NCBI GenBank assembly: GCA_964520225.1
Contig: CAZFNV010000001.1
Location: forward strand, 72,210 to 136,209
From: an uncultured Candidatus Saccharibacteria bacterium
Lineage (GTDB): Bacteria > Patescibacteriota > Minisyncoccia > Phycocordibacterales > UBA9973
Direction of reading: 5' to 3'
Length of the DNA stretch: 64,000 nucleotides
Below are positions 2,788 through 58,375 of this stretch, piece by piece. The position numbers and the translations under genes are program-made. Below the pieces are notes generated by a model. That model was not told the origin of the DNA and searched no databases. It was given only the letters and a program-made list of their open reading frames with translations. Positions within the stretch are counted from its first letter, which is position 1. Each line of letters starts with the position of its first letter.

Positions 2788-2974
2788 CAAAACACCCCTT
2801 TTTTGCAAATTTTGTGCATAACTTTGTGGATAAGTCTGCTGGTTTGCAATTATATGTATGCTGTGATAGTATTCTAGGCGTAAGAGTCCTGCAGCAACGG
2901 GGCTTTTATTTTTTAGAAAATAAGGAGTGCAAACGACCATATTTTCTAAAACCCCGTTAAATGATTTCAAATTT

Positions 2975-3238
2975 ATGGGAAAATTTTATTACATATATGT
3001 GCTTAAATCCCAAAAAGATGGCGCACTGTATGTGGGTTACACCGACAATTTGAAATCGCGATTTGAGCAACATTCGAAAGGACGTGTTACTTCGACAAAA
3101 AATCGCAGGCCGCTCGAACTAGTGTACTCTGAAGCTTGTTTAAGTAAACCCGATGCAACACATCGTGAGAGATATTTAAAAACAGCTTGGGGTAAAAAGT
3201 TTTTGAAGAATCGGCTCAAATCTTATTTAATGGGGTAA
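2975..3238 (+). CDS. Small stand-alone GIY-YIG nuclease domain protein (YhbQ-like)
   Basis: FYYIYVLKS..DGALYVGYTDNLKSRFEQH...ERYLK (GIY-YIG motifs). The start is taken at the internal ATG at 2975. Confidence 0.65.
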   Translation: MGKFYYIYVLKSQKDGALYVGYTDNLKSRFEQHSKGRVTSTKNRRPLELVYSEACLSKPDATHRERYLKTAWGKKFLKNRLKSYLMG

Positions 3239-11055: not shown

Positions 11056-11622
11056 TTAGTATTTCCTTATCACAGCTTTAAGCGTGGCAACAACCTTTAG
11101 GCTATATTCTGGGTAAATAGGCTTGTAGTTTTTGTTCGCGGGTTCGAGCCAACGCTTACCTGCCCGCTCGCGCAAATACTTCATCGTATATTCTCCATCC
11201 ACCTCGGCGATAACTATTTCACCATCACGAGCTGTGTTCGCCCGCTCTACCAGCACCATGTCCCCTTTCTCAATATGTGCATCTATCATAGAGTCGCCAT
11301 CAACTTCGAGCATATAAGTCAGTGATTTATTTTTTACTAGCAAGCTATCGAGCGATACCGTGTCGGTCATCTCTTCATCCACCGTCGCTGGTAGCCCAGC
11401 AGTCACCAGACCAAGCATTGGAACTTCACCGAAAGAGTTGGCAGGAATCAACCTACCTAGGTGATCCTTGGCCACGAGCCCTGCCTCAATTAATTTGTTC
11501 ACAACTTTGAAAACCGCATTCTTGGATTTGAAGCCGAAGAGCTTGGCCATCTCCGCATATGTGGGCATACGGTTGTGTTTACCGTAAAAGGATTCTAGCT
11601 CGGATTGATATTGATTACGCAT
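11056..11622 (-). CDS. lexA: LexA repressor (wHTH plus S24 peptidase)
   Basis: N-terminal HTH, VPMLGLVTAG cleavage region, GDSMIDAHIEKGD...K catalytic Ser/Lys. Confidence 0.85.
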   Translation of the reverse strand: MRNQYQSELESFYGKHNRMPTYAEMAKLFGFKSKNAVFKVVNKLIEAGLVAKDHLGRLIPANSFGEVPMLGLVTAGLPATVDEEMTDTVSLDSLLVKNKSLTYMLEVDGDSMIDAHIEKGDMVLVERANTARDGEIVIAEVDGEYTMKYLRERAGKRWLEPANKNYKPIYPEYSLKVVATLKAVIRKY

Positions 11623-11830
11623 GAGTGTTTAGAATGTCTCTGCGGAAAAATAAATCTACAAAACGATTAGTGAAACTCTTGTGAGTGTGGAAGCGAACTT
11701 TCTGCAGAAGCAACCTATGATCTCTCGCCTCTTTCCTGTAATCCAAGCCTCGTAGAATTTTCAAATCTATTTTTTTATTTATCTTCTGGATTTCTCTATC
11801 TAGCATTTTTAAATATTGTGATTGTGACAT
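11615..11830 (-). CDS. Small basic hypothetical ORF (71 aa) overlapping the lexA start by 8 nt; the first gene downstream of the LexA box
   Basis: ORF and operon position only. Confidence 0.35.
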   Translation of the reverse strand: MSQSQYLKMLDREIQKINKKIDLKILRGLDYRKEARDHRLLLQKVRFHTHKSFTNRFVDLFFRRDILNTHA

Positions 11831-15182: not shown

Positions 15183-15204
15183 ATAAGGAAAATCTCCTTC
15201 CATA

Positions 15205-15522
15205 AATAGCTTGACTTACTGATGGGCAAGGAGTAGTGTGTAATGAAGTCGAGTTCTTCGAAGAAATTATTCCCGCGAACCTAGCATGTGGATTAGACAC
15301 CCTCGTGTTAGTCGCCAGGCTTTTCATGTCACACGTAGTGAAAGTCTGACTCAGCCTCAAGCGTGGTTCACGCAAGAGCAAGTACAGGGAGAAGCTGACG
15401 TATAATGGGCTTGTAACCACTGCGGCGTCGCAACGGCGCCGGCCCATGGCTAAAGCGAAGAGCTTGACTTTTTTCACTCATCATAAATTCGGCACCCCTC
15501 GGGGTGCCTTTCGTTTTTTAAG
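15205..15522 (+). ncRNA. Candidate structured RNA of unknown class: a GC-enriched (~52%) non-coding island ending in a strong terminator (15491-15519, GGCACCC-CUCG-GGGUGCC plus a U-run)
   Basis: No ORF of 60 aa or more on either strand, local GC well above the flanks, and several helices. I could not match the conserved cores of RNase P RNA, tmRNA or SRP RNA. Confidence 0.3.
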
Positions 15523-15896
15523 TAAATAAATTCACAGTAAATGCTTCCGGCGAAACGCATATCCTGAACTTGACTTCAAGTATTTTTCAAACATTAGCGC
15601 TGTTTCTTTTGACGCAAATGCGCAATACCAAACTAATTTATATTTACCATTTTTCGTAGTTTCTACTTGGCCTTGATTATGGTAAATAAGTCTATCTTTC
15701 AGATTGTTGGACTAACCAACATAATATTCTTGCTTATCTGCATTAAATAAAATATAAGTGTAGTACATATTTTTTGCCCCACTCCATCAAGATTGCGCGA
15801 GGCCACTTCGCTTTCGTGTTTTTTATTATATCAATTTCAATATAGAGTTTTGTGGTGCTTGCACCGCGAAGCTCCTGATTCGTCAGGAGCGCAGTG

Positions 15897-15915
15897 GTGC
15901 GGGATAGGAGAATCG
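15897..15915 (-). repeat. 19-nt direct repeat of the 3-prime end (T-loop/acceptor) of tRNA-Gly(UCC), followed by an encoded CCA. The other copy is the genuine tRNA 3-prime end at 16018-16036.
   Basis: GTGCGGGATAGGAGAATCG occurs twice, 121 nt apart. The upstream copy reads ...ATCCCGC-A-CCA on the tRNA strand. Confidence 0.6.
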
Positions 15916-16018
15916 GCTACTACATAGCCAGGTGCTTTTCCGTCTCACCATACTCACAAGGAAAAGCCTTTCGATTCCCTACGCAAGCAAAGCAGTTTGC
16001 TTACTATCCCTTACTCTG

Positions 16019-16089
16019 TGCGGGATAGGAGAATCGAACTCCTAACCTCAGTTTGGAAAACTGATATTTTACCATTAAACTAATCCCGC
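16019..16089 (-). tRNA. tRNA-Gly (anticodon UCC), 71 nt, CCA not encoded
   Basis: Hand-folded cloverleaf: acceptor GCGGGAT/ATCCCGC, D-stem GTTT/AAAT, anticodon stem TCAGT/ACTGA with loop TTTCCAA, T-arm AGGAG-TTCGATT-CTCCT. Confidence 0.8.
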
Positions 16090-16171
16090 CTTCTTTCGCA
16101 ATTACTGAACGCCGCTCGAACCTTTTTTGAACGAAATCCCGAATGATGCCGCGCGGCGCATTATCAATCAA

Positions 16172-17425
16172 TTATAAACTATCCTCGGGAAAACCAATAG
16201 TGTCTTTCCCCATGTACGATCTCAACACCTCAGGAATAAGAATTGTCCCGTCCTCTTGTTGGTAATTTTCCAATATAGCGATAAGTGTTCTCGAGACAGC
16301 TATTGCTGTACCATTTAGCATATGCAGAAATTCTACCTTACCGTCTTTTCTGCGAACTTTAATATTTAGATTTCTTGCCTGATAATCGGTACAGTTTGAT
16401 GTTGAAGTTACTTCACCATAATCGTTTCGACCTGGCATCCATGCCTCAATATCATATTTTCTTGCTGCAATTGCCCCAAGATCTCCTGTGCACATCTCTA
16501 AAACTCGATACGGAATATTCAATTTTTGATAAATCCTCTCCTCAAGCTCCAATAGATACTTGTGCATTGAGTCAGATTGTTCTGGAAGACAATAAATGAA
16601 CATCTCTGCTTTCGTAAACTGATGCACACGATAGAGGCCGTGAGAATATTTTCCATACGCACCAGCTTCTTGCCTGAACGCATGAGAGTAACCAATATAT
16701 TTCAATGGTAATTTATCCTCTGGAATAATCTCGTCAGCATGCAACCCAGCAATAGTGACTTCAGCGGTTGCGATTAAACCAAGATCGTGACCGTCAATAG
16801 CATAAATTTGTGCCTCGTTTCCTTTTGGTAAATATCCAGTACCTAAATAAAATCTTGATTTTGCCAGATCGGGAGTTATCACTGGCACATACCCCTCTTG
16901 AATAAGCAATTTAAATGCGTACTGCACTAAAACTAATTCGAGTAATGCCAGATCACCAAGAAGAAAGTAAAATTGTGAGCCGGCCACTTTTGCACCGCCC
17001 TCAAAGTTAAGCATGCCAAGTCCTGTTCCCAACTCAAAATGTGTTTTCGGTTTAAATTTAAAGTTGGGTTTATCGCCCCATATTCTGATTACTTTATTAT
17101 CTGTTTCTGTTTTACCAATTGGCACATTATCAAAGGGTAGGTTCGGTATACCATTAAGTAATTTAGAAACATTTTCCTTAATTTCTAAAAGATTTTTTTC
17201 AACTTTTTGAAGGGTAATCTTAATTTGTTTCGCCTCTTCTCGTTTAGTATTATCTTTTGAAAGCTGATTACGTTGACTCCGTAAATTTTCGGATTCGGCC
17301 AGCATTTTTCGATATTCTTTATCTAATGACAAAAGTTGGTCAACAATCGACGGATCGTATCCCTTTGTGGTAATTCTGCTTCTAACTAATTCTGGATTTT
17401 CTCTTACAATTTTAATGTCTATCAT
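16172..17425 (-). CDS. serS: Seryl-tRNA synthetase
   Basis: N-terminal coiled-coil arm and the class II motifs (FRQEAGAYGKYSHGLYRVHQFTKAEMF). Confidence 0.9.
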   Translation of the reverse strand: MIDIKIVRENPELVRSRITTKGYDPSIVDQLLSLDKEYRKMLAESENLRSQRNQLSKDNTKREEAKQIKITLQKVEKNLLEIKENVSKLLNGIPNLPFDNVPIGKTETDNKVIRIWGDKPNFKFKPKTHFELGTGLGMLNFEGGAKVAGSQFYFLLGDLALLELVLVQYAFKLLIQEGYVPVITPDLAKSRFYLGTGYLPKGNEAQIYAIDGHDLGLIATAEVTIAGLHADEIIPEDKLPLKYIGYSHAFRQEAGAYGKYSHGLYRVHQFTKAEMFIYCLPEQSDSMHKYLLELEERIYQKLNIPYRVLEMCTGDLGAIAARKYDIEAWMPGRNDYGEVTSTSNCTDYQARNLNIKVRRKDGKVEFLHMLNGTAIAVSRTLIAILENYQQEDGTILIPEVLRSYMGKDTIGFPEDSL

Positions 17426-17427
17426 AG

Positions 17428-18723
17428 TTATTTTATTGTAGCGAGTAATATCGCTAAACTATTATTAAATCTATCAGCTGAATCCTCTAACACTCTTTTA
17501 ATATTGACCTCCTTGACTTCCACATTACCAATCACATTTATTTTTTCGAATAGAGGGTCGAAAAATAAATGAACCTCCTCAGGATATAACTCTTTCGTGA
17601 GGTGTAAAACATTAACAAATATTGGCTTAATTTCATCATTCCAAAAATCACGAGATTCTTGCGATAACATGTTTAATTTATCTGTTATTTCAGGCACCTC
17701 ATGGAATTTATAGGGGAGACTGGAAAGGGTTTTCCATATTTTATCGTCGCTTAAAATACCTTCTAAAAGAAGAATAATGCCTGGCACCAATAGAACTGAA
17801 GGGTTGTCGAGGTATCTCATTTCGATATAATCTTTTATGCGTATGTCGGTAAAAATAGTGGAATTATGGAATATATATGAATCGAGATTGGCATTATTTA
17901 AAAAACTCCGAAAAGGTAGCTCGCCGTGCAAAACCTTATATTCCCTATTTAATACATCAAAAATCGTCGGCGCGTCTAAAACTTTCTCAATGTAATCTTC
18001 GATTGCCCAGCGACCTTTTGCCCAAAAATCATTTCCGGGATCCCCGCATCTTTTCGGATCGGTATCGCGCCATACCATCTCTCGAAAAGAACGATACTTC
18101 TGAGTCTTGTCATTATAGACATGCGAATGAGACGAAAGAGCAAGCAACAATGGCTTCAAAAAAAGCAGACGGTTAACTTTTTCTTCTAAATCATTTTTTG
18201 AATTAAAATTAAAAGTGAGTTGCAGAGAAGTGGTGTCCCTCATCATGATTCTGCCAAGGGCGCCGGTGCCTTGAAAGTAGGTATCCATTATCTGGTAACG
18301 ATCCACAGGAAGAAGCGGCACGGAATTTACATCACCAATAGGAAATAAAGAAACATCACTAAAATTTATACCAAACTTTTCGGATAAAACTCTATAGGTT
18401 TGAAGTAGGTTCAAAAACTGTTTAACTAAAGACTGGGCATTTCCACTTCGGCAAGCGCTATACTCGAGCTGAGAACCTGGCTCCAGTGTAAATCTGACTC
18501 CATCTTTTTCAAAACCTACGGTTTTTCCAAATGGTGATGTTTTAAAACCCTTTTCGTAAACCAAATAATCAAAGATTTTTCTTAATCCTGAAATTTCTTT
18601 TCCGTTGTAAAAAAATAATCTCTGCTTATTTTTATCTAGGCAGAAAACTTCATATTCAAAGCCACAAGTTTTTTCATCTTGACCGGCGGTATGGTATTTT
18701 AGAATTTGCTGATAGGTAAGCAT
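17428..18723 (-). CDS. Glutamate-cysteine ligase family 2 / carboxylate-amine ligase (GshA/YbdK-like)
   Basis: FTLEPGSQLEYS resembles the GCS2 ITLEPGGQ.ELS signature. Gene order places it downstream of an ATP-grasp ligase and a DegT aminotransferase. Confidence 0.55.
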   Translation of the reverse strand: MLTYQQILKYHTAGQDEKTCGFEYEVFCLDKNKQRLFFYNGKEISGLRKIFDYLVYEKGFKTSPFGKTVGFEKDGVRFTLEPGSQLEYSACRSGNAQSLVKQFLNLLQTYRVLSEKFGINFSDVSLFPIGDVNSVPLLPVDRYQIMDTYFQGTGALGRIMMRDTTSLQLTFNFNSKNDLEEKVNRLLFLKPLLLALSSHSHVYNDKTQKYRSFREMVWRDTDPKRCGDPGNDFWAKGRWAIEDYIEKVLDAPTIFDVLNREYKVLHGELPFRSFLNNANLDSYIFHNSTIFTDIRIKDYIEMRYLDNPSVLLVPGIILLLEGILSDDKIWKTLSSLPYKFHEVPEITDKLNMLSQESRDFWNDEIKPIFVNVLHLTKELYPEEVHLFFDPLFEKINVIGNVEVKEVNIKRVLEDSADRFNNSLAILLATIK

Positions 18724-18725
18724 GG

Positions 18726-19715
18726 CTATTTAGATTTAATCTTTTCAATTTCGGCGAGGATTAATTTATAAAATTCTTCAGCAGGGTCGCGCCCCGCTTC
18801 TTTAAAAATTTCTTCATAATAACCGGGGAACGTATTTTCATCAACAATAACCGGTTTTCCATTATGAAATATCATATCAAAACCTATAACTTCGACACCG
18901 ATTGCCTTATAAGCTCTTAACGCCTCTTCTCGACATACTTGAGGCACTTCGCAACTATCAACTTCTCCGCCTATTTCGTTTGCGTCGTATACTTTCGTGG
19001 TTCCGTTTCCCATATCAGCCAACTTATTTTCTCTTTTCCTGTAACCATACATTATCTCACCATTGATAAGAGTTACACTGACCCATTCTTCGAGTTTATT
19101 TTCATAATATCTTTCCAATAGATATGCTTTGTCTGGCGTGGTTCTTGTAGTGCTGTCAATATAATCTGTAATATCACGTAGTGCAGCAAAGCTGTTTATT
19201 AAAGTGACCCCCTTGCCGAATCCGCCACGCCGCGGCTTCAAAACCGCCGCGCCCCATTCTTTCATAACGCGTTCGATATAGTGAAGATTTTTATAATCAA
19301 ATAAAACTGTTTCAGCTACCGAACCTCCGGCTTTTTTAATTGCCAAATGAGAAGCGTATTTATCCAATCCAATTTCAAAACCCATCGGATTGATTACCAC
19401 CTTAGTATCTTTGGATAATGTCTTCAACACATCAAGATCGTAACTACCTACACTTCTATCAACCTCGCAATACCAAAAGAAAATATCTAGATCATTTAAA
19501 CAAAAATTATCTACATATATCTTACCATCCTGAATAAAAGATTTTCTGAAATTTAAATCCCAATAAATATCCGCATCCTTAATGTCATTGATCATTTTTT
19601 CTAATTTTTGCTGTGTAGCCTTAGGTAAGCGTCCAATCCCGCCAAAATGGATTGAGGCACTTTGACCTTTCGATACTGGCGCCGGTATACAAAATCCTAC
19701 TTTAATTTTTTTCAT
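18726..19715 (-). CDS. ATP-grasp ligase (RimK / glutathione-synthetase-like)
   Basis: KPRRGGFGKGV ATP-grasp glycine-rich loop, with the C-terminal Mg/ATP-binding region. Confidence 0.6.
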   Translation of the reverse strand: MKKIKVGFCIPAPVSKGQSASIHFGGIGRLPKATQQKLEKMINDIKDADIYWDLNFRKSFIQDGKIYVDNFCLNDLDIFFWYCEVDRSVGSYDLDVLKTLSKDTKVVINPMGFEIGLDKYASHLAIKKAGGSVAETVLFDYKNLHYIERVMKEWGAAVLKPRRGGFGKGVTLINSFAALRDITDYIDSTTRTTPDKAYLLERYYENKLEEWVSVTLINGEIMYGYRKRENKLADMGNGTTKVYDANEIGGEVDSCEVPQVCREEALRAYKAIGVEVIGFDMIFHNGKPVIVDENTFPGYYEEIFKEAGRDPAEEFYKLILAEIEKIKSK

Positions 19716-20908
19716 ACTTTAATATCTATTAAGGTCGAAATAATAGTTTCTGCGATATAATCAAGATGATTCTTACGAAAGAAAACAGGCAACCTCATAT
19801 CGCACGCGAATTCAAGCATTACTTTTGTTTTCTCCAATGAAGGAATTTTTCCGATATATTTCCAATTCCAAAAAACTCTCGCATTGTCTGGATGAACACC
19901 AAAAACATATAGTGAGATACCGCATCTTCGTACTCTATCCATGAATGTTTTTGTTTGACTTAGTGTTAGTCCCTCAAGATTAAATTGGATAGAATCCGGA
20001 GCCATTCTTTCTCTTGAGTCAGGTTTTGGTATTTTTATATTTTGAGACATGGAAAGCTTGCTTACTAAATAACGATAGTTTTCGTTATAGATAGCAACTT
20101 TTTTCTCTATTTCTTTAATTTGACATCTAATGATTGCCGCAGAAACATTATTCATTCTTAGGTTAAAAGCTGGAAGAATATTTTTATATCGTTCAAAAAG
20201 CTTACTGTTCATAAAATGTTTTTCGTACATCTTTTCGTATGCACCGGACAGATAAATTGCTTTTACTATAATTTCTTCATCATCAGTGACCAACAGACCT
20301 CCCTCGCCTGCATTGATAATTTTATATGATTGAAAACTATAACAGCCAACTCTTCCAAAAGTTCCCACTGGTTTGTTATTCCACAAAACGCCTAAACTAT
20401 GCGCGGAATCCTCAATAAGAATAATCCCGTTATCTTTACACAATTTAACGATACGATCCATATCCGAAGTGTGACCCCTCATATGAGACAGAAGTAAAAC
20501 TTTTGTTTCTGCGGATATTTTTTTCTTTAAATCTTCTATATCTACGACGTATCTTTTATCGCACTCAACAAGTATAGGTATTGCGCCAACATGTAGTATG
20601 GCACTAGGAACAGCGGTAAAGGTAAAGGCAGGCACTAAAACTCTATCGCCAGGCTTAACACCACAACTAATAAGCGCGAGAAACATTGCGCTGCTGCAAG
20701 AGTTAAGAGCAAGGGCATATTTAACTCCAAGATATTTCGTAAAATCTTTTTCCAGTAAGGCCGCCTCTGAGTCTTGTGGCTTATCGCCAATATATCGGAA
20801 TAAATTTCCACTTTTTAAAATTTGGCTGACCCGCACAAGAGCCTCTTTTGGTATAGGATCAGCTCGATGAAAATCACTGATAGAAAGTCTGAATTTTTTA
20901 CTTTTCAT
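19712..20908 (-). CDS. DegT/DnrJ/EryC1/StrS-family PLP-dependent aminotransferase
   Basis: IEDSAHSLG..., FSFQSYKII (PLP lysine) and the overall fold-type I pattern. Confidence 0.75.
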   Translation of the reverse strand: MKSKKFRLSISDFHRADPIPKEALVRVSQILKSGNLFRYIGDKPQDSEAALLEKDFTKYLGVKYALALNSCSSAMFLALISCGVKPGDRVLVPAFTFTAVPSAILHVGAIPILVECDKRYVVDIEDLKKKISAETKVLLLSHMRGHTSDMDRIVKLCKDNGIILIEDSAHSLGVLWNNKPVGTFGRVGCYSFQSYKIINAGEGGLLVTDDEEIIVKAIYLSGAYEKMYEKHFMNSKLFERYKNILPAFNLRMNNVSAAIIRCQIKEIEKKVAIYNENYRYLVSKLSMSQNIKIPKPDSRERMAPDSIQFNLEGLTLSQTKTFMDRVRRCGISLYVFGVHPDNARVFWNWKYIGKIPSLEKTKVMLEFACDMRLPVFFRKNHLDYIAETIISTLIDIKV

Positions 20909-21038
20909 ATTATTTCAGCAAATCTTACATGGAAACGCTCAACGCTCTGGTGATTTTCGCCCAAGTTCGAGCGCCTAGCTTATTCACTGCACTACTTTCA
21001 TCCTTCATGGATGTAGTGTATTTAATATCCGCCTTCTT

Positions 21039-21109
21039 TCGGGCCGCCGCGAATCGAACGCGGTCTAAACGGTCCCAAACCGCTTGTACTACCGGTATAC
21101 TACGGCCCG
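21039..21109 (-). tRNA. tRNA-Pro (anticodon UGG), 71 nt
   Basis: Hand-folded: acceptor CGGGCCG/CGGCCCG, anticodon stem AGCGG/CCGTT with loop TTTGGGA (G37), T-arm CCGCG-TTCGATT-CGCGG. The track ORF 20925..21116 overlaps it and is spurious. Confidence 0.8.
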
Positions 21110-21986: not shown

Positions 21987-22057
21987 GCGGTCATGGTTTA
22001 GTGGTAGAACACGTCCTTGCCAAGGATGAGACGGGAGTTCGATTCTCCCTGGCCGCA
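21987..22057 (+). tRNA. tRNA-Gly (anticodon GCC), 71 nt
   Basis: Hand-folded: acceptor GCGGTCA/TGGCCGC, anticodon stem CGTCC/GGATG with loop TTGCCAA, T-arm GGGAG-TTCGATT-CTCCC. The track ORF starting at 22017 begins inside it. Confidence 0.8.
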
Positions 22058-22061
22058 CAAA

Positions 22062-23609
22062 ACAAAATTGGACAAAAGGACAGATTTAATATCCAGGGTT
22101 CCAGAAAAAGTTTCATATGTAACCAGCACTCTGGAAAAAGCTGGTTTTGAAGCCTATCTAGTGGGTGGGTGTGTGCGAGATCTAGTTTTGGGCAGGGAAC
22201 CGAAAGATTGGGATGTGACAACAAATGCCAAGCCAGAACAGATAATAGAGCTATTCGAAAAAACAGTGTATGAAAACACATTTGGCACAGTGGGGGTGTG
22301 TGTTATTCGTGAAACAGCTAAAAATAGCGTTATTCATGAAACACCGGAGTATGAGATCATTGAGGTTACTCCTTACAGAATAGAAGGTAAATATAGCGAT
22401 TTTAGACACCCAGAGGAGGTGAAATTCGCAGATAAGATAGAAGAAGACCTAAAAAGACGTGATTTCACGGTAAACGCCCTAGCTCTAGACTCTAAAGGAC
22501 ACTTAGTAGACTTGTTTGAGGGTATAAAGGACATAAAAGATTCTTCGTTACGGACAGTGGGGGAGCCGGTGGACAGGTTTACCGAAGATCCTCTGCGCAT
22601 GCTCCGCGCTGTGCGCTTTGCCTGCCAACTAAACTTTTCGATATCCAACGAAACTTCTGAATGTATTGCAAAAAACTCGGAGTTGATAGGAAAAATATCT
22701 TCGGAAAGAATACGCGACGAGTTCACAAAAATATTAATGACGGAAAATGCTAGTATGGGTATAGTTCTACTTCAAAAGCTTGGCTTATTGAAGCATTTTA
22801 TTCCTGAGTTTGAGGAAGGAATAGGTTGCATGCAAGAAGGGGAACACATCTATGATGTATGGGGGCACCTGCTCACTTCACTCCAACACTCTGCTAATAA
22901 AAACTGGCCACTTGAGACAAGACTCTCCGCACTTTTTCATGACATAGGCAAGCCCCGCACTAGACGAATCTCTGGTAGCGCCACCAAGAAGAAATACACC
23001 TTCTACGGCCATGAAGTAGTGGGCGCCCGCATGACAGAAAAGATACTTGAAAGATTAAAATTTCCCAGAAAAGAAATAGAGCTAGTAACTAAAATGGTTC
23101 GCCATCACATGTTCTTTTCTGATACGGAACAAATCACCCTGTCAGCAGTGAGGCGCATAATAACCAAAGTAGGCAGAGACAACATTTGGCTTCTAATGAA
23201 TGTGCGTGAGTGCGACAGAGTAGGCACAAATAAGAAAGAAACTTCTTATCGCCTTCGCAAATATTTCGCCATGATCGAAGAAGCTCTGCGTGACCCTATA
23301 TCAGTGGCTCAACTCAAAATAAATGGGGAATACATGATAAAGGAACTCGGCATCACGCCAGGTCCCAGAATGGGGTACATATTAAACGCCCTACTCGAAG
23401 AGGTGCTGGACGCGCCAGAAAAAAATACAGTAGAACACCTTTCAGAACTAGTGAGATCACTCGACATGCTCGGCGACAAAGAGTTGAAGGCCCTCGGCGA
23501 CCGCGGAAAAGAAAAGAAAGAAGAACTCGAAGAGCAAGAGGTGGAGAAATTACATCAAAAACACGGAGTGAGCTCGGGCAAGGGAACCGAACGCAAGGCC
23601 GGAGCCTGA
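22062..23609 (+). CDS. cca: CCA-adding tRNA nucleotidyltransferase with HD domain and a Lys/Glu-rich C-terminal tail
   Basis: GGCVRDLVLGREPKDWDV head-domain motif and LFHDIGKP HD motif. The track start (TTG 22017) lies inside tRNA-Gly; the likely start is the in-frame TTG at 22062 just after the tRNA (start uncertain). Confidence 0.7.
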   Translation, partial: TKLDKRTDLISRVPEKVSYVTSTLEKAGFEAYLVGGCVRDLVLGREPKDWDVTTNAKPEQIIELFEKTVYENTFGTVGVCVIRETAKNSVIHETPEYEIIEVTPYRIEGKYSDFRHPEEVKFADKIEEDLKRRDFTVNALALDSKGHLVDLFEGIKDIKDSSLRTVGEPVDRFTEDPLRMLRAVRFACQLNFSISNETSECIAKNSELIGKISSERIRDEFTKILMTENASMGIVLLQKLGLLKHFIPEFEEGIGCMQEGEHIYDVWGHLLTSLQHSANKNWPLETRLSALFHDIGKPRTRRISGSATKKKYTFYGHEVVGARMTEKILERLKFPRKEIELVTKMVRHHMFFSDTEQITLSAVRRIITKVGRDNIWLLMNVRECDRVGTNKKETSYRLRKYFAMIEEALRDPISVAQLKINGEYMIKELGITPGPRMGYILNALLEEVLDAPEKNTVEHLSELVRSLDMLGDKELKALGDRGKEKKEELEEQEVEKLHQKHGVSSGKGTERKAGA

Positions 23610-23670
23610 CGAGGCGAGGAGGGTTCGCAAGATTTTTCAGCAGAAAAATACTTGTGAAAGGAAATAAAAC

Positions 23671-25350
23671 TTACGAAACTTCTTGCTGATAACAAGGCTC
23701 GCAGTAGATTATTTCTTTACGGTCGGGGGAGTAAGCTGTTTCGAATTCTGTTCTACATTTTTCAGCGCCGTGAATATGATTTTTTAGATCACACATGCAA
23801 GCGCGAGCCCAGAGTTTACGTGGGTTGCGTTTTTTCATACGGTCTTGATGCCGGCACTCGAAGTCTTTGCGTGGCAGGGGAATGTTCATCCGCCTGTAAA
23901 AGGCGAGCTCACCGCGAGTAATGCGAAAATTCTTTTTACAATCTTGACACACTAGTACTTGGCTTAAAATATCATCACTAACTTCGCCTATAGTTCCCGG
24001 CATCGCATCTTCAGTAACAGTTTCTTGGCCATAGGTGCCGGTAGTTTTTTCTTGCCAATTGAACCCTCGCGCCCTGGCTTCTGCCTCGGTGATTTTGTAG
24101 TGATCGAAGCCAAGAGTCTCGTTAAAACCAAAAGGAGAGAAGGTGGAAGGGAAAAATTGGCCGTAAGTTCCATCTTTTTTCATGGTTTCGTAAATATCAT
24201 TTCTGATTTGCTCATATTCTTCTTTCGAATATTCTTTATTCAAAACCATATATTGACCCTTGCGAATAGCATTGCACCCGATAGCACTGGATAGGTTGTG
24301 ACAATTTTCAGAATACTCAACTTCATTGCAGTAAAAAATATATGCGCAATTTTTTGACTTACTGCACTGTAGCGCACCCATAATGTTGTAGCAAAGTTCG
24401 TTTTTGTAATAAAAGTTATTACAATCCATGCTGTCCATAGACTCTTCGGTGTCTGCAACATATGAACAATTTTTAGACCCAGTAGTGTCAAAAATTCTGA
24501 CGCCATCGTGGCAATTATGCATATAGTCTCCAGTGACATTATTACATTTTGTTTGTGAGGAGAACTTGAAAATACTTTTTTTCTTCAGCTCTTCAAATTG
24601 CTGTTTGGCTTTTTGTATATTTTCATAACTTGAAAAGATTTCCTGCTTTTTCTTTTCGAATTCTTCTTTGGAATATTTGACGTTTAAAATAGCGTTTGAT
24701 AAGTTGCGCCCATTTACACAAAAGATACAGTTGTTGGAGTTACGGACGTTATAACAGAAAACAAGATCAGAGGAGGATTGGCATTGCTCAGAGTACATAC
24801 ACTTGAAACATTCACGCGTATCTACACACTCATAGCATAATTCAGACTGATGTATGAAGGCGCAGTCAACACAAGATTTGCATTTCTGGATCAAGCGACT
24901 GTACATACAGTCTTCATTGTACTCAGCGGCGAAAATTAAGTAGCAGTCTTTGTTGTCAGAAGCGCCATTCGTATATTCACTACGAACAGAGTTAAGGGCC
25001 ACCAATGCAAGACGAGGAACTTTGAGCTGAAGCTCTCTGTACTGTTCAAAAAAAGGTGCGCCTTTCTTATATTCTTGCCCGAAATCTTTCGGATCCCACT
25101 TATCACTCCACCAGCACTCATGACAGTACACAGGGAATTGTGAATCCTTCGCATAGAGAGAAACAATATCCTTGGAACACATATCGCACGATCGCTTGTA
25201 AAAAGTTCTTTCGTTTCTGAAAGCCAAGCGCTTCATGGCCCTACAATCAGGACAGTCGACTGGTGGAGGAACTTTAACTTGCTCGTAAAAAATCGTATCG
25301 GCTTTTCTTATCTCAAACCCATTCCCGCAAGTTTTACAATTTTTTTGCAT
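23671..25350 (-). CDS. Large cysteine-rich protein (~60 Cys) with homologous zinc-ribbon modules at both termini and a central array of degenerate Cys-containing repeats; unknown function
   Basis: N-terminal CKTCGNGFEI...PVDCPDCRAMKRLAFRNERTFYKRSC..C and C-terminal CQDCKKNFRI...FECRHQDRMKKRNPRKLWARACMC align with each other. The centre has repeated ~14-aa NC..-type units. No signal peptide. Confidence 0.55.
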   Translation of the reverse strand: MQKNCKTCGNGFEIRKADTIFYEQVKVPPPVDCPDCRAMKRLAFRNERTFYKRSCDMCSKDIVSLYAKDSQFPVYCHECWWSDKWDPKDFGQEYKKGAPFFEQYRELQLKVPRLALVALNSVRSEYTNGASDNKDCYLIFAAEYNEDCMYSRLIQKCKSCVDCAFIHQSELCYECVDTRECFKCMYSEQCQSSSDLVFCYNVRNSNNCIFCVNGRNLSNAILNVKYSKEEFEKKKQEIFSSYENIQKAKQQFEELKKKSIFKFSSQTKCNNVTGDYMHNCHDGVRIFDTTGSKNCSYVADTEESMDSMDCNNFYYKNELCYNIMGALQCSKSKNCAYIFYCNEVEYSENCHNLSSAIGCNAIRKGQYMVLNKEYSKEEYEQIRNDIYETMKKDGTYGQFFPSTFSPFGFNETLGFDHYKITEAEARARGFNWQEKTTGTYGQETVTEDAMPGTIGEVSDDILSQVLVCQDCKKNFRITRGELAFYRRMNIPLPRKDFECRHQDRMKKRNPRKLWARACMCDLKNHIHGAEKCRTEFETAYSPDRKEIIYCEPCYQQEVS

Positions 25351-27872: not shown

Positions 27873-28838
27873 TTATTTTTTGTTATGAAACTTTTTATGT
27901 ACTTCTTTTAAATGTTTGTCAGTAACGTGGGTGTAAATCTGGGTAGTCACGATGCTGGCATGGCCGAGGAGGGCTTGCACTGATCGTATGTCTGCGCCGT
28001 TTGAGAGGAGGTCGGTAGCGAAGGAGTGGCGGATAGTGTGCGGAGTAACCTTCTTCGACATACCAGACTTCGTAGCATACTCACGCACTATCCGCTCTAT
28101 CGAGTGGCGATTAAGCGCGCCGCTCGCAGTTATTCTGTCTCTGCTTTTTTTGTTTTTATCGTTTTCACGATCAACCCGCACAAACATTGCCTCGTCCATA
28201 TCTTTTCGTTCTGCTAAATATTTTTTCACAGCGTTTCGCGCTTTTTCGGAAATGAAAACTACGCGAATCTTACTACCCTTACCTCGCACTGAAAGTTCAT
28301 CAGCATCGATGTTGATATCACGGGCGAGGGAACACAGCTCTGTCACGCGGAGCCCGGTAGAAAAAAGTAGCTCGAGTATGGCTTTGTCGCGCAGGGATTT
28401 GAGGTCATTACCATTCGGGGCCTTGAGTAGTGCTTCGAGCTCTTCGCTAGTTATAAGGTCTAGGTGTCGCTCAGGAACTTTGGCCAGCTCAATACGTTCC
28501 GCAGGAAGAGTTTTCACTTCACGGCGGGCTAGATATTTGAGAAACGCGCGAAGGGCTATCAAATAATAGTTCTGTGTTTTTTTAGAAAGGGTTTGTTCGT
28601 AGCCTACGTTGCGAGCATTAAAGCCGCGCGATTTCCAAGGCAGGTTAGATTGGCGGTTCAGCCACAGCCTAAACTCGCGCACAGTGTCATCAGTAATGCG
28701 CGCAGGTTCATCGTTCTTGATAAAGCTTAAAAAGCGCGAAAGGTAGCGGTCGTAATTCTCAACTGTTTTGAGCGACCGCCCTTTTTCTATTTCAATATAT
28801 TCCAAAAATTGAGTTTTGAGAGCTTTTAGAGATGCCAT
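27873..28838 (-). CDS. xerC: Tyrosine recombinase XerC/XerD family
   Basis: C-terminal R..HxxR...Y catalytic context (TPHTIRHSFATDLL...LLGHASIVTTQIYTH). The start is taken at the internal ATG at 28838 (MASLKAL), which is leaderless after a TATACT box. Confidence 0.8.
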   Translation of the reverse strand: MASLKALKTQFLEYIEIEKGRSLKTVENYDRYLSRFLSFIKNDEPARITDDTVREFRLWLNRQSNLPWKSRGFNARNVGYEQTLSKKTQNYYLIALRAFLKYLARREVKTLPAERIELAKVPERHLDLITSEELEALLKAPNGNDLKSLRDKAILELLFSTGLRVTELCSLARDINIDADELSVRGKGSKIRVVFISEKARNAVKKYLAERKDMDEAMFVRVDRENDKNKKSRDRITASGALNRHSIERIVREYATKSGMSKKVTPHTIRHSFATDLLSNGADIRSVQALLGHASIVTTQIYTHVTDKHLKEVHKKFHNKK

Positions 28839-28980
28839 GTAAAAAGTATAGCAGGTTGAATGTATCAAAATCTCTATTTACAAAAATAAAATTTTATTGT
28901 AAAAATTAGTGCAGATTAGCCCTTAAATAGGGTATGGTTTTTTGACAACCCTTCTAAAGGAGGACAAAAATGATCATCCT

Positions 28981-36884: not shown

Positions 36885-37802
36885 TTAATCAACGGTTATA
36901 CGCAAGCCCAACTTGTATTTCTTTAAAAATTGGATGGGGCGGTAACTCATTTTGGATCTTTTGATTTCTTGTATACCCAAATCCTGCTGCCAATTCCATT
37001 CCTCAACTCCTCGTTCATAGAGATAAGTAGCTATATTTCTGTTTAGGAATTCCGCACCTCCTCTGTACTGTTTATCTACCTTGAAAAAGTGTGAGACCGC
37101 ATAGCCAAATGACAATATTTCTTCCACGGCAAATCCTACTATTCTATCGCCGACCATAATACAAGGGAACAGTATGTTTCTATGCTTGTCTGGCTCGCTC
37201 AATAGGGCATGGAAGGCCTTCTCCTCATGTAGGGCATCGTTGTCTTTGTTTTTCTTCCAATCATTAAAAACGCTTTTTATCTGATCATGCATTACACTGT
37301 CACCTAGGTGATGTAGGACAAATTTGGCGTCTGGATATTTATCTAAAAAATTTTCTGCTAAATGTCTTTTGGTTTTAAAAGCTACACCTCTTAGATCTTT
37401 GAGTAGAGAAACTGAAAATACATAATCAAAGTTATCTCTATCTTCCTCTATTATAAAATCAGACTTGTCTAGATCTTTTACAACCTCCTCTGTTACCAAT
37501 TTCAGAACGGGAGAAATACTCGCCTGTTCGGCAAATTTTATAAGCTCACGAGCAGTATCCTCGGGTTTAATGTTGCCAAAAAAAGAAAAGAAGTGGTCTC
37601 CGGACAAGTAATCGGTAAATCTAACAACAAGATTTCCGTTCAGCTTAGAAATCAGCCTTTCTTTCTTGGTATCCCAAGCCCACATACTAGTAAAGTTAAA
37701 ATCAGAGTAGGGGAGAAGATTTGAAGTAAACTCTTCTATTTCAGGCTTGTCCTCTAGGTCTATGCTCTTAAATTCTGGAAATGTAGGAATCATGAGAGAC
37801 AA
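36885..37802 (-). CDS. Hypothetical protein, possibly a DUF2156/MprF-C-like acyltransferase fold (tentative)
   Basis: Weak resemblance only; it is not membrane-bound. Confidence 0.3.
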   Translation of the reverse strand: MSLMIPTFPEFKSIDLEDKPEIEEFTSNLLPYSDFNFTSMWAWDTKKERLISKLNGNLVVRFTDYLSGDHFFSFFGNIKPEDTARELIKFAEQASISPVLKLVTEEVVKDLDKSDFIIEEDRDNFDYVFSVSLLKDLRGVAFKTKRHLAENFLDKYPDAKFVLHHLGDSVMHDQIKSVFNDWKKNKDNDALHEEKAFHALLSEPDKHRNILFPCIMVGDRIVGFAVEEILSFGYAVSHFFKVDKQYRGGAEFLNRNIATYLYERGVEEWNWQQDLGIQEIKRSKMSYRPIQFLKKYKLGLRITVD

Positions 37803-52333: not shown

Positions 52334-52434
52334 CTTCTATTCAGAAGACACCGAAAAGCAAAAGGCTGTACACTTAAAATAAAAATAGTGTTAAAATAAA
52401 GAGGTGGGTCCCGTAGTAGATTTTTATTACGATT

Positions 52435-52704
52435 ATGTTCTATGTATACATAATTGAAAGTGTAGTCGGGAAAAACTTATATATCGGCTTCACTAAAGAT
52501 CTCAAGAAAAGACTACTGGAACATAATCAAGGGTTAAATTTTTCTACTAAAAGATATGGTAAATGGAACATTATATACTACGAAGCCTGCGCAGAAGAAA
52601 GCGATGCTAGGCGCAGAGAAAAATACCTAAAAACAACACAAGGAGGGAGGTTGAGAAAAAGAAGAATAAAGGATTATTTATATAAATTGAAAAATTTAAC
52701 ATAA
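52435..52704 (+). CDS. Small stand-alone GIY-YIG nuclease domain protein (second copy)
   Basis: FYVYIIESVVGKNLYIGFTKDLKKRLLEHN...EKYLK. Confidence 0.65.
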   Translation: MFYVYIIESVVGKNLYIGFTKDLKKRLLEHNQGLNFSTKRYGKWNIIYYEACAEESDARRREKYLKTTQGGRLRKRRIKDYLYKLKNLT

Positions 52705-56899: not shown

Positions 56900-57259
56900 A
56901 TGAAGACTTACCAAGACTTGATAGTTTGGAAGAAATCTATAGAGCTAGTAATCGCTATATATAGCCTTACGGATAAATTCCCAAGAGAAGAAATATTTGG
57001 CATAACTTCACAAATCCGCCGAGCAGCAGTATCAATACCTTCAAATATCGCTGAAGGTAAAATGCGTGGCGGAAATATAGAATTAAAAAGGTTTCTGCTG
57101 ATCGCTTTTGCTTCGGGCGCGGAACTCGAAACTCAGCTTATAATAGCTAGAAAATTACCTAAAATGGTAAATTTAGATTATAATAAAGTGGATCCTCTTT
57201 TAAATGAGGTTATGAGGATGTTAAATAAAATGATTACTCAGCTAGAGCCTAAAGCCTAG
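56900..57259 (+). CDS. Four-helix-bundle protein of the 23S rRNA intervening-sequence protein family
   Basis: YQDLIVWKKSIELVIAIYSLTDKFPREEIFGITSQIRRAAVSIPSNIAEG...ASGAELETQLIIARKL closely matches the family consensus as I remember it. Confidence 0.8.
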   Translation: MKTYQDLIVWKKSIELVIAIYSLTDKFPREEIFGITSQIRRAAVSIPSNIAEGKMRGGNIELKRFLLIAFASGAELETQLIIARKLPKMVNLDYNKVDPLLNEVMRMLNKMITQLEPKA

Positions 57260-57273
57260 TTGCCTAGCGCCTA
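57241..57273. repeat. Right arm of the inverted repeat flanking the four-helix-bundle ORF (GCTAGAGCCTAAAGCCTAGTTGCCTAGCGCCTA)
   Basis: Seen in sequence. Confidence 0.55.
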
Positions 57274-57276
57274 CTC

Positions 57277-57696: not shown

Positions 57697-57701
57697 TAAA
57701 C

Positions 57702-58340: not shown

Positions 58341-58375
58341 TAGATAGCGTGCTAGTATATATCTAAACAAAAACG

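What the first reader, a model, noticed from the sequence alone, without database searches (positions are those of the whole stretch)
15897..16089. tRNA-Gly(UCC) with a 19-nt direct repeat of its 3-prime end, bearing CCA, 121 nt downstream: att-site-like scar
GTGCGGGATAGGAGAATCG (T-loop through acceptor end) occurs at the genuine tRNA 3-prime end and again 121 nt away. The second copy is followed by CCA, while the functional tRNA is followed by CAG. That is the signature left by integrase-mediated insertion into a tRNA 3-prime end (attL and attR), but only ~100 bp lie between the copies. It suggests an excised or decayed element, or a recombination hotspot, next to a tRNA-flanked segment (serS to DegT).
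Basis: seen in the sequence. Interest (0 to 1): 0.5.

Follow-up and report, generated by a model that had tools for sequence, protein, structure and literature searches.

The report
Mini tRNA-mimic insert behind tRNA-Gly
The repeated tRNA tail is real, but it is not a dead prophage scar: it marks an intact copy of an apparently undescribed, roughly 105-base, folded non-coding insert that sits behind tRNA genes of tiny Patescibacteria, carries a copy of the tRNA's tail, and is gained and lost between near-identical strains.

Summary
tRNA-Gly(UCC) lies on the minus strand (16089-16019). Its last 19 nt (T-loop C56 to C74) recur exactly 121 nt downstream. The copy in the tRNA is followed by AG; the distal copy completes CCA.

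The 102 nt between the copies are not debris. They belong to a family of about 30 copies that I recovered from Patescibacteria contigs. Every copy sits directly 3' of a tRNA-Gly, tRNA-Pro or tRNA-Arg gene, and most end in a copy of that tRNA's own tail.

The family has a conserved fold. On 12 distinct copies, 95.9% of cells are paired and 22 of 35 pairs show compensatory changes. Two internal strands change with the host tRNA so that they pair with the copied tail, imitating the acceptor/T-stem helix. G·U outnumbers A·C 24 to 6 on the tRNA-sense strand.

No ORF, Rfam family, integrase, transposase or reverse transcriptase goes with it. Strains with near-identical flanks differ by empty site, two different occupied alleles, or one versus two tandem copies.

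Best reading: a non-autonomous, tRNA-derived structured mini-element transcribed as the tRNA trailer. How it moves is inferred, not shown. No empty allele was found for the window's own locus.

The parts
16019..16089 (-). tRNA-Gly(UCC), intact, CCA not encoded (A73 is followed by CAG)
   Evidence: ARAGORN; Rfam RF00005 at 71.1 bits
16018..16036 (-). Proximal copy of the 19-nt repeat: tRNA positions C56-A73 plus C74
15916..16017 (-). Body of the insert (102 nt), a member of the structured family modelled as R1. The model hit spans 15895-16015.
   Evidence: cmsearch 110.2 bits, E 1.3e-23; only real copy in the window
16004..16010 (-). H1 5' strand GGGATAG. It pairs with CTATCCC of the distal copy and resembles the tRNA's own 5' acceptor strand (GGGATTAG). 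The positions equivalent to pairs 1:72 and 2:71 are mismatched (AA).
   Evidence: sequence
15983..16004 (-). H2: 9-bp hairpin GTAAGCAAA-ctgc-TTTGCTTGC, conserved across the Gly, Pro and Arg types
   Evidence: 100% of cells paired; 6 of 9 pairs with changes on both sides
15972..15980 (-). H3 5' strand AGGGAATCG. It pairs with T-loop and T-stem 3' nucleotides (CGATTCTCCT) of the distal copy, and it changes with the host tRNA in other copies.
15934..15968 (-). H4 hairpin (conserved base GCTTTTCC/GGAAAAGC, variable tip), preceded by the invariant junction AAAG
   Evidence: 98-99% of cells paired; 8 of 13 pairs with changes on both sides
15930..15933 (-). Junction ACCT between H4 and H5, near-invariant in the family
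   Evidence: alignments A1 and A3
15915..15929 (-). H5 hairpin GGCTA-TGTAG-TAGCC, the most conserved sequence of the family. It abuts the distal repeat.
   Evidence: 96.7% of cells paired; 4 of 5 pairs with changes on both sides
15895..15915 (-). Distal copy of the tRNA tail (15915-15897) completed to CCA (15897-15895). It forms the 3' strands of H3 and H1.
15871..15890 (-). Hairpin GCTCCTGA-cgaa-TCAGGAGC, 4 nt after the CCA. Probably the 3' flank of the tRNA unit. It is only weakly terminator-like, with no U run.
   Evidence: (I9)

Best explanation
The 19-nt repeat is the tRNA-like 3' end of a small, non-coding, non-autonomous insertion element of about 105 nt plus the copied tail. The element is derived from, and specific for, the top half of its host tRNA.

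Shown:
- The element sits immediately after the discriminator of tRNA-Gly(UCC).
- It belongs to a family found only at that position behind tRNA-Gly, tRNA-Pro and tRNA-Arg genes of Patescibacteria.
- It has a conserved fold on the tRNA-sense strand: hairpin H2, plus a three-way junction H3/H4/H5 with invariant AAAG and ACCU joints.
- Two internal strands are complementary to the host tRNA's positions 56-72. With the copied tail they form a 15-17 bp look-alike of the acceptor/T-stem stack.
- Copies are gained, lost or doubled between strains whose flanks are near-identical.

Inferred:
- The element is transcribed as the 3' trailer of the tRNA.
- Because the insert displaces any encoded CCA, the tRNA is matured by a cut after A73 and by the CCA-adding enzyme encoded at 22017-23609.
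- The trailer folds on itself, so the spare tail is paired within the element rather than left free to pair with the tRNA body.
- The element has no enzyme of its own. It spreads by recombination that uses the conserved tRNA as the left homology arm and its own tRNA-like tail, or mere microhomology, for the right join. Slippage between the direct repeats makes tandem copies or deletes the element.
For: Family and position:
- nhmmer and a covariance model recover 8 copies in the first set of contigs and 21 more in contigs fetched through the neighbouring YraN gene. Every inspected copy lies directly 3' of a tRNA, or of another insert behind a tRNA.
- The window has exactly one copy.

Structure:
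- RNAalifold on 7 copies gives 17 of 35 pairs with compensatory changes.
- On 12 distinct copies, 95.9% of cells are paired. 22 of 35 pairs change on both sides, against 10.4 +/- 1.9 in shuffles (0 of 500 reach it) and 4-7 for slid registers.
- G·U outnumbers A·C 24 to 6 on the tRNA-sense strand.
- No reading frame is open in all copies.

Target matching:
- H3 has 9-11 bp and H1 5-8 bp with the host tRNA tail in every copy.
- Summed duplex energies are -19.9 (own tRNA), -18.1 (same tRNA type) and -14.0 kcal/mol (other type).
- Single-base changes in the tRNA (G57A in L101, U59C in L123/L125, A67G between L112 and L101, U65C in L142) are matched in the internal strands.

Gain and loss:
- L122/L124/L128/L129 have tRNA-Pro-CCA followed directly by the next gene, while L123 and L125 carry the element.
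- L122 and L123 have 0 mismatches in 2,265 nt downstream and only an 11-mismatch cluster about 2 kb upstream.
- Empty and occupied alleles occur on both downstream haplotypes.
- The two occupied alleles differ by 7 substitutions, including a compensatory pair in H5, and have different, unclean right junctions.
- L143 has two identical tandem copies where L142 and L145 have one. L087 also has a tandem pair.
- L098/L099/L100 have tRNA-Pro-CATT-tRNA-Gly, whereas L112 and L101 have the element in between.

No mobility enzyme: Pfam and NCBIfam scans of 50 window ORFs give only a Xer-type recombinase at 27873-28868.

CCA-adding enzyme: encoded at 22017-23609. Two other tRNAs in the window also lack an encoded CCA.
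Against: - There is no expression data, so transcription and processing are inferred from position alone.
- No empty allele exists for the window's own locus.
- Spread by homologous or illegitimate recombination does not by itself explain why H2, H4 and H5 are kept by compensatory changes. That points to a function, or a mobility requirement, that I could not identify.
- It is unexplained how three separate tRNA-specific segments were swapped between the Gly, Pro and Arg types while the modules between them stayed conserved.
- The distal acceptor strand has decayed in 5 of 12 copies (L100, L101, L123, L125, L132). Self-pairing with the copied tail therefore cannot be essential.
- In the computed minimum-energy fold of the whole transcript, the tRNA body pairs with the distal tail instead.
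- The covariation counts were made on an alignment fitted to the model's structure, which leans towards that structure.
- 19-20 nt is short for RecA-dependent recombination (my own knowledge).
Confidence: 0.55

Rival explanations
1. It is a host-beneficial tRNA-like non-coding RNA gene (a top-half or minihelix mimic of the neighbouring tRNA). It might act as a decoy or adaptor for a protein that recognises the acceptor/T-stem of particular tRNAs. Presence/absence would reflect ordinary gene loss and recombination rather than mobility of the element itself.
For: There is strong purifying selection on structure, including compensatory changes between alleles in near-identical strains and between tandem copies. 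Junction nucleotides and the H5 loop are conserved. The acceptor-like helix ends in A73-CCA in the window and in L111. Every copy has mismatches at the top or middle of the acceptor-like helix, as if to avoid being treated as a real tRNA.
Against: Only 3 of 32 loci with this exact tRNA-Gly 3' half carry an insert of this kind: two that the model recognises (the window and L087) and the long variant in L111. It is dispensable within a population. The distal acceptor strand decays in 5 of 12 copies while the rest is kept. Tandem duplicates and stacking of different insert types behind one tRNA (L132) look like insertion dynamics. No partner protein gene is linked.
Confidence: 0.2
2. It is a miniature site-specific integrative element, analogous to a cis-mobilisable element. 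A tyrosine recombinase encoded elsewhere (an integrase of a larger relative, or the host Xer enzyme) moves it in trans, and the two 19-nt copies are attL and attR.
For: The identity block runs from the T-loop to the 3' end, as for integrases that cross over in the T-loop (my own knowledge of tRNA att sites). The general picture of partial tRNAs flanking integrated elements, tandem integrations and remnants is described for tycheposons (bioRxiv 10.1101/2020.12.28.424599). Head-to-tail tandem copies exist (L087, L143). A Xer-type recombinase is present in the window. The folded strand imitates the duplex of its target, as folded single-stranded recombination sites do (resemblance from memory).
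Against: No integrase lies in or beside any of about 30 copies. The core 19-mer has no match in 2.9 million viral contigs, and the conserved H5 motif has only a chance match. The element has no match in the phage or plasmid collections. There is no inverted-repeat core at the distal junction (TAGCC|GATTC). The two independent gains in L123 and L125 have ragged, different right junctions and delete the host CCA. G·U-rich covariation points to RNA rather than protein-binding DNA arms.
Confidence: 0.15
3. It is an intervening sequence in the T-loop. The real 3' end of the tRNA would be the distal, CCA-bearing copy, and the 121 nt (proximal tail plus body) would be removed from the precursor.
For: The minimum-energy fold of the whole transcript pairs the tRNA body with the distal tail and the internal strands with the proximal tail. 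The distal copy carries CCA in the window, L111 and L025. Introns are common in Patescibacteria tRNA genes (PMC13011429).
Against: The proximal tRNA is intact in every case, whereas the distal tail is often mutated or truncated, so splicing cannot be required. There is no match to group I or II intron models or to any ribozyme in Rfam at E up to 10. The published Patescibacteria tRNA introns are group I introns in the anticodon loop, and that paper does not mention a T-loop or acceptor site.
Confidence: 0.04
4. It is the scar of an excised or deleted prophage or island, or a chance or assembly repeat.
For: A classical-looking case exists at the same tRNA in L088: a 26-nt repeat including CCA around a 620-nt insert with one ORF.
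Against: The spacer is a full-length, high-scoring member of a conserved family of constant size and fold. The repeat is absent from shuffles and is reproduced in a second assembly.
Confidence: 0.03

Closest known systems
Integrase-borne elements that insert into tRNA 3' ends, such as tycheposons and classical prophages or islands, and their integrase-less remnants
   Same: An intact tRNA is followed by the insert and then by a partial copy of the tRNA's 3' part. Tandem stacking occurs at one tRNA, and each lineage is tied to one tRNA (bioRxiv 10.1101/2020.12.28.424599; PMC9897764).
   Different: This insert is about 105 nt, against kilobases for those elements. It has no integrase or any other gene. 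The insert itself is conserved as a folded RNA-like unit whose internal strands complement the copied tRNA tail. The right junctions of fresh gains are ragged.
Small non-autonomous bacterial repeats (MITEs, REP/BIME, Rickettsia palindromic elements); comparison from my own knowledge
   Same: Roughly 100-nt, non-coding, structured, strain-polymorphic passengers with no enzyme of their own.
   Different: There are no terminal inverted repeats on the inserted segment and no short fixed target duplication. The element is found only at the discriminator of specific tRNA genes, with target-matched internal segments.
tRNA top-half mimics: the tmRNA tRNA-like domain, viral 3' tRNA-like structures, bacterial Y RNA (YrlA)
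   Same: An acceptor/T-stem-like coaxial helix ending in N73-CCA, with the rest of the tRNA replaced by other domains (YrlA: PMC4201824, title and abstract as listed; the others from my own knowledge).
   Different: There is no T-loop. The T-loop position is replaced by a two-hairpin junction. The acceptor-like helix is deliberately imperfect. No Rfam model matches. The mimic copies whichever tRNA lies upstream.
tRNA-derived SINEs of eukaryotes (from my own knowledge)
   Same: A short non-coding mobile unit with a tRNA-related part and an unrelated conserved body, flanked by long target duplications.
   Different: No reverse transcriptase was seen in the ORFs scanned here. Insertion is site-specific, not dispersed.
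Group I introns in Patescibacteria tRNA genes (PMC13011429)
   Same: Extra structured RNA embedded in tRNA loci of the same phylum.
   Different: Those introns interrupt the anticodon loop (for example at 35/36), are self-splicing and match intron models. This unit follows an intact tRNA, is much shorter than a group I intron core (my own knowledge), and matches no intron model.

Membership tests
Integrase-mediated att scar at a tRNA gene | Direct repeat of the tRNA's 3' segment on both sides of the insert, with an intact tRNA regenerated | tested here: met
   Exact 19-nt repeat C56-C74 and an intact tRNA
Integrase-mediated att scar at a tRNA gene | Integrase gene, or a recognisable fragment of one, in or next to the insert | tested here: not met
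   No ORF in the 102 nt. Neighbours are serS and a GIY-YIG pseudogene. The only tyrosine recombinase is Xer-type, 12 kb away.
Integrase-mediated att scar at a tRNA gene | Clean, identical junctions in independent insertions, with the distal copy being host sequence followed by the host flank | tested here: not met
   L123 and L125 versus empty L122/L124: the right junctions differ, the tail is truncated or diverged, and the host CCA is deleted
Integrase-mediated att scar at a tRNA gene | Free element carrying attP in phage, plasmid or viral collections | tested here: not met
   0 hits for the core 19-mer and 1 chance hit for the H5 motif in viral contigs. No match for the element in phage or plasmid collections. 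CPR mobile elements are poorly represented there.
MITE | Terminal inverted repeats at the ends of the inserted DNA and a short fixed-length target duplication | tested here: not met
   The ends of the 102-nt segment (AGAGTAAGG... and ...GTAGTAGC) are not inverted repeats. The duplication is 17-20 nt and equals the tRNA tail.
Rfam families (tRNA, tmRNA, Y RNA, group I/II introns, self-cleaving ribozymes and all others) | Match to the family covariance model | tested here: not met
   Across 15450-16120, cmscan at E up to 10 gives only the tRNA itself plus noise. The same holds for the variants in L025, L111, L145 and L130.
Group I intron in a Patescibacteria tRNA gene | Interrupts the tRNA (anticodon loop), and the tRNA is complete only after splicing | tested here: not met
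   The tRNA is complete upstream of the unit. See PMC13011429.
The family defined here (model R1) | Starts 0-9 nt after the discriminator of a tRNA, on the same strand | tested here: met
   The body starts at 16017, one nt after A73-C74
The family defined here (model R1) | H2 hairpin, AAAG-H4-ACCU-H5 junction, and internal strands complementary to host tRNA positions 56-72 | tested here: met
   110.2 bits with all helices formed. H3 has 10 bp and H1 has 7 bp with the host tail.
The family defined here (model R1) | Transcribed and folded as RNA | not testable with these tools
   Only indirect evidence: sense-strand G·U excess and position inside tRNA operons (L112, L101)

The most novel reading that the evidence does not exclude
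The internal strands may be true guides. On this reading, this is a protein-gene-free mobile RNA/DNA element that finds the 3' end of its cognate tRNA gene, or the tRNA itself, by base pairing. It would be a bacterial counterpart of a tRNA-derived SINE, or a guide-bearing recombination substrate, retargetable by changing two short strands. Alternatively, the RNA may act in trans on the tRNA's 3' half.
Probability: 0.2. Interest if true: 0.85.

Novelty: new variant of a known kind. Interest (0 to 1): 0.62.

Why it matters
If the reading is right, tRNA genes of Patescibacteria carry a class of tiny structured passengers that annotation misses entirely.
- They change how the host tRNA must be matured, because the encoded CCA is lost.
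- They create partial tRNA copies that can be mistaken for prophage scars or pseudo-tRNAs.
- They show that tRNA 3' ends can be insertion hot spots without an adjacent integrase.
- The family is a ready candidate for a new RNA family entry.
- Its target-matched strands offer a concrete system for asking whether base pairing can direct insertion at, or regulation of, a specific tRNA.

Tried and rejected
- Synteny through serS. 80 genome loci and closer relatives at 93, 86 and 79% SerS identity have no tRNA-Gly after serS, so no empty-site allele for this locus was obtained.
- Viral contigs with the 19-mer core (0 hits) and with the conserved H5 motif (1 hit with no tRNA and no element context, rejected as chance).
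- Phage and plasmid collections: no match.
- Rfam at permissive thresholds on four kinds of insert: nothing.
- Coding hypothesis. A 44-aa ORF lies on the opposite strand in the window, but several copies have stops in all six frames. Rejected.
- Hammerhead-type and other ribozyme cores. I compared the junction strands (AAAG, ACCU) with the hammerhead core by eye, and there is no Rfam hit. Rejected as members; self-cleavage as such was not tested.
- Primer-binding-site idea. The internal strands do not pair with the terminal GCACCA, so they are not an 18-nt complement of the tRNA 3' end. Rejected.
- GIY-YIG nuclease as the mobilising enzyme. It is adjacent in the window (as a pseudogene) and next to a tRNA-Pro fragment in L162/L168, but absent near most copies. 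Not supported as a general partner.
- YraN as partner. It is conserved upstream of tRNA-Pro, but so it is in empty loci. This is synteny only.
- L087's Gly-type copy is cut by the end of the stored locus, and the rest of that contig could not be fetched.
- The look-up of the window's first large ORF, to extend the contig, found nothing.
- My first bracket string for H3 was mis-registered.

Full report
**1. The observation.**
- tRNA-Gly(UCC) lies on the minus strand at 16089-16018 (ARAGORN; Rfam tRNA 71.1 bits at 16019-16089).
- The 19-mer GTGCGGGATAGGAGAATCG (+ strand) occurs exactly at 16018-16036 and 15897-15915. It occurs nowhere else in the window and in none of 100 shuffles, even with three mismatches allowed.
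- In tRNA sense the repeat is CGATTCTCCTATCCCGCAC, which is T-loop C56 through discriminator A73 plus one C.
- The tRNA copy continues AG. The distal copy continues CA, giving an encoded CCA, then CTGCG and a 20-nt hairpin.
- A second assembly (Logan, SRR15237813; L081) is identical over 8.4 kb.
The only adjustment is orientation: 'downstream' runs towards lower coordinates.

**2. Organism and setting.**
- The SerS and YraN proteins place the window in Patescibacteria, in or near the Microgenomates group. The best named relatives are Amesbacteria, Woesebacteria and Pacebacteria.
- The window is ordinary chromosome: NusA, trigger factor, ClpP, RNase Y, PNPase and UvrD-type helicase.
- A CCA-adding enzyme is encoded at 22017-23609.
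- Of the four tRNAs in the window, only tRNA-Arg encodes CCA. A tRNA without encoded CCA is therefore normal here.

**3. The spacer is a member of a family.**
- A metagenome scan with the tRNA's 3' half returned 31 loci. In 28 of them the tRNA is followed at once by unrelated DNA. L087 has a homologous spacer with compensatory differences in its hairpins, and L111 has a longer insert of the same design.
- An nhmmer search with the window spacer then found copies behind tRNA-Pro(UGG) (L087 twice in tandem, L112, L101) and behind tRNA-Arg(UCG) (L092, L100). Each ends in a copy of that tRNA's own tail from C56 onward.
- L098, L099 and L100 show the empty state, tRNA-Pro-CATT-tRNA-Gly. L112 and L101 have the element between the two tRNAs.
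- A covariance model built from seven copies finds one copy in the window (110 bits, filters off) and 21 more copies in contigs fetched through the conserved upstream gene YraN.
- A screen of all 142 tRNAs in the loci held at that point, looking for a nearby copy of their own tail, also turned up a second family of different sequence. It lies behind two tRNA-Met genes of a Paceibacterota contig (L025).
- A third insert type is stacked with an R1-type copy behind tRNA-Pro in L132-L141.

**4. Anatomy.** Read in tRNA sense, the unit is:
- 0-9 nt after the discriminator;
- H1 5' strand, a near copy of the tRNA's 5' acceptor strand;
- AG;
- H2, a 9-bp hairpin;
- GT;
- H3 5' strand, complementary to T-loop positions 56-60 plus the T-stem 3' strand;
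- AAAG;
- H4, with a conserved U/A-rich base and a variable tip;
- ACCU;
- H5 (GGCUA-UGUAR-UAGCC);
- the copied tail, which supplies the 3' strands of H3 and H1 and ends in N73, sometimes with CCA.

Window coordinates are in the parts list.

Evidence for the fold:
- On 12 distinct copies, 95.9% of cells form standard pairs.
- 22 of 35 pairs have changes on both sides, against 10.4 +/- 1.9 after shuffling (0 of 500 reach it) and 4-7 for registers slid by 1-3 columns.
- H2 is 100% paired, H4 99% and 98%, H5 97% and H3 86%.
- Caveat: the alignment was fitted to the model's structure.
- G·U outnumbers A·C 24 to 6 on the tRNA-sense strand, so that strand is the one that folds.
- No frame is open in all copies.
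- No Rfam family matches any variant.

**5. The internal strands track the host tRNA.**
- With the genuine upstream tRNA tail, H3 forms 9-11 bp and H1 forms 5-8 bp in every copy.
- Summed duplex energies average -19.9 kcal/mol for a copy's own tRNA, -18.1 within a tRNA type and -14.0 across types.
- Point differences between orthologous tRNAs are mirrored in the strands: CAAU/AUUG in L101 against CGAU/AUCG elsewhere; C59 with G in L123/L125; A67 or G67 with U or C in L112 versus L101; C65 with G in L142 against U65 with A in the window.
- Every copy keeps a mismatch in the acceptor-like helix: A opposite G in the Pro and Arg types, and AA opposite G71-C72 in the window and L142. L087's Gly copy instead has a C opposite C72 and a bulged A.
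- The unit is best described as the top half of the host tRNA. Positions 8-48 are replaced by one hairpin, and the T-loop is replaced by a two-hairpin junction.
- Copies group by tRNA type rather than by genome. L087's Gly-type copy resembles the window's more than it resembles L087's own Pro-type copies.

**6. Gain, loss and copy number.**
- Contigs carrying the identical YraN protein P0133 fall into three alleles. L122, L124, L128 and L129 have tRNA-Pro-CCA, then TCAAATT, then the next gene. L123 carries the element. L125, L126, L127 and L130 carry a different allele of it.
- L122 and L123 have no mismatch in 2,265 nt downstream, and upstream only a cluster of 11 mismatches about 2 kb away.
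- L123 equals L125 upstream. Empty L124 shares its downstream haplotype with occupied L125.
- The two occupied alleles differ by seven substitutions in about 105 nt, including GGCCA...UGGCC against GGCUA...UAGCC in H5. They share the left junction (A73|ACGGAG) and have lost the host CCA.
- Their right ends differ. One is a tail cut after the T-stem strand. The other is a diverged tail followed by foreign sequence that rejoins the host at AAATT.
- I read this as two separate acquisitions. The left join lies inside tRNA homology, and the right join is illegitimate or microhomology-based.
- L143 has two identical tandem copies where L142, L144, L145 and L146 have one, with flanks 99.9% identical between L142 and L143.
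- The distal tail has diverged from the host tRNA in L100, L101, L123, L125 and L132.

**7. No enzyme.**
- Pfam and NCBIfam scans of 50 window ORFs and of neighbours in L087 and L112 show no integrase, transposase or reverse transcriptase near any copy.
- The one tyrosine recombinase (27873-28868) scores best against XerD, XerC and XerA models, and lies 12 kb away among housekeeping genes.

**8. Mechanism.**

Shown:
- position at the tRNA discriminator;
- a conserved sense-strand fold;
- internal strands matched to the host tRNA tail;
- strain-level polymorphism, tandem copies and decay of the distal tail;
- absence of a linked enzyme.

Inferred, and the reading I commit to at about 0.55:
- The unit is transcribed as the tRNA's trailer. 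In L112 and L101 it lies between two tRNAs that are only 4 nt apart in the empty state (L098-L100), so it can hardly escape transcription.
- The tRNA is released by a cut after A73 and completed by the CCA-adding enzyme.
- The trailer folds on itself.
- The element spreads and is lost by recombination, using the tRNA and its own tRNA-like tail as portable homology. Slippage between the repeats gives tandem copies or precise loss.
- What maintains H2, H4 and H5 is not explained. That keeps two rivals alive: a host-useful tRNA-mimic RNA (0.2) and a recombinase-mobilised mini-element (0.15).
- An intervening-sequence reading is unlikely, because the proximal tRNA is always intact while the distal tail decays.
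- The decayed-prophage reading is contradicted by the family evidence.

**9. Comparison and novelty.**
- The duplication pattern is that of elements integrated in tRNA genes (PMC9897764).
- The size and lack of genes recall MITE-like repeats. The fold recalls tRNA top-half mimics.
- The defining features of each were tested and not met: integrase and clean att junctions, terminal inverted repeats, and model matches.
- Four successful literature searches found nothing describing it. The paper on Patescibacteria tRNA introns concerns group I introns in the anticodon loop.
- I rate it a new variant of a known kind: tRNA-targeted small insertions and tRNA-like RNAs. There is a 0.2 chance that the target-matched strands act as real guides, which would make it much more unusual.

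Noticed in passing
window 16086-21041 (minus strand); repeats at 21041-21029 and 16098-16086: In related contigs, YraN, tRNA-Pro(UGG) and tRNA-Gly(UCC) are adjacent, with the two tRNAs 4-19 nt apart, followed by a ZIP transporter and a convergent LysM-M23 peptidase (L112, L087, L142). In the window, a 4.9-kb block of lower GC (36-37% against 42-45%) sits between the two tRNAs. It holds DegT-type aminotransferase, an ATP-grasp enzyme, a GCS2 ligase and serS. The block is bracketed by an exact 13-nt direct repeat, CGAAAGAAGGCGG, made of the last 3 nt of tRNA-Pro, the spacer and the first 4 nt of tRNA-Gly. After the first copy comes what looks like a decayed tRNA-Gly 5' end. Upstream of DegT there is, by eye, a C-terminal remnant of the HTH gene that precedes this cluster in L119-L121. 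The block therefore looks inserted, even though it carries serS.
   Followed up: partly
window 15532-15768 (minus strand); paralogs at 2927-3238 (+) and about 52420-52701 (+): A small GIY-YIG nuclease gene (Pfam E 8.9e-16) lies just downstream of the element. It has its own extended -10 box (15833-15825) but an in-frame TAG at codon 19, so it is a likely pseudogene. Two intact-looking paralogs lie elsewhere in the window.
   Followed up: partly
L162 and L168, 1905-2370: In strains otherwise like L161, a GIY-YIG gene (2021-2284) lies between an interrupted fragment of the tRNA-Pro 5' half and an intact tRNA-Pro. This is a second kind of tRNA-fragment-plus-insert polymorphism, here at the 5' side.
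   Followed up: no
L088 (minus strand), tRNA-Gly at 1589-1662 and a repeat 620 nt downstream: A classical-looking duplication at the same tRNA: the 26-nt repeat TTCGATTCTCCTATCCCGCACCACAA, including CCA, surrounds a 620-nt insert with one reverse-strand ORF.
   Followed up: no
L025 9650-9840 (minus) and 11453-11700 (plus): A second insert family of about 165 nt lies behind two tRNA-Met(CAU) genes of a Paceibacterota contig. It consists of a terminator-like hairpin, a continuous strand complementary to the tRNA tail, a conserved body, and the copied tail. One copy has CCA plus a terminator, and the other is tandem.
   Followed up: partly
L132-L141, e.g. L132 3049-3180; L111 340-558 (minus): A third insert type of about 130 nt, ending in a 13-nt copy of the tRNA-Pro tail, is stacked in front of an R1-type copy. 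L111 carries a 205-nt variant with the R1 architecture but extended H4 and H5 and an extra 5' hairpin. The model does not detect it.
   Followed up: partly
window 15183-15531: About 350 nt of GC-rich sequence lies between the M23 peptidase gene and the GIY-YIG pseudogene. It has no convincing ORF, no match in other loci, and a strong hairpin (15491-15508) followed by a T run on the + strand.
   Followed up: partly
L114-L121, first about 60 nt after the serS stop: Relatives share a conserved hairpin-like motif after serS (for example GCGCGCCAGTTTTCAACTGGCACGAAAT). The window lacks it, and sequence similarity to the 93%-identical relative stops about 25 nt after the stop codon.
   Followed up: no
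window 56900-60214: A cluster with a bAvd / 23S-rRNA-intervening-sequence-type protein and with PrgI-like, TraC-like and TraG-type ATPase genes (Pfam marks from the gene table of L171). It looks like a type IV secretion or DNA-transfer apparatus.
   Followed up: no
window 36885-37802 (minus): A protein with the C-terminal domain of phosphatidylglycerol lysyltransferase. Members of that family use aminoacyl-tRNA as donor (my own knowledge). No link to the element was found.
   Followed up: no
window 23593-23694 (+): A weak match to the element model (16.3 bits, E 0.05) lies in the short gap after the CCA-adding enzyme gene. It is probably just a hairpin.
   Followed up: no
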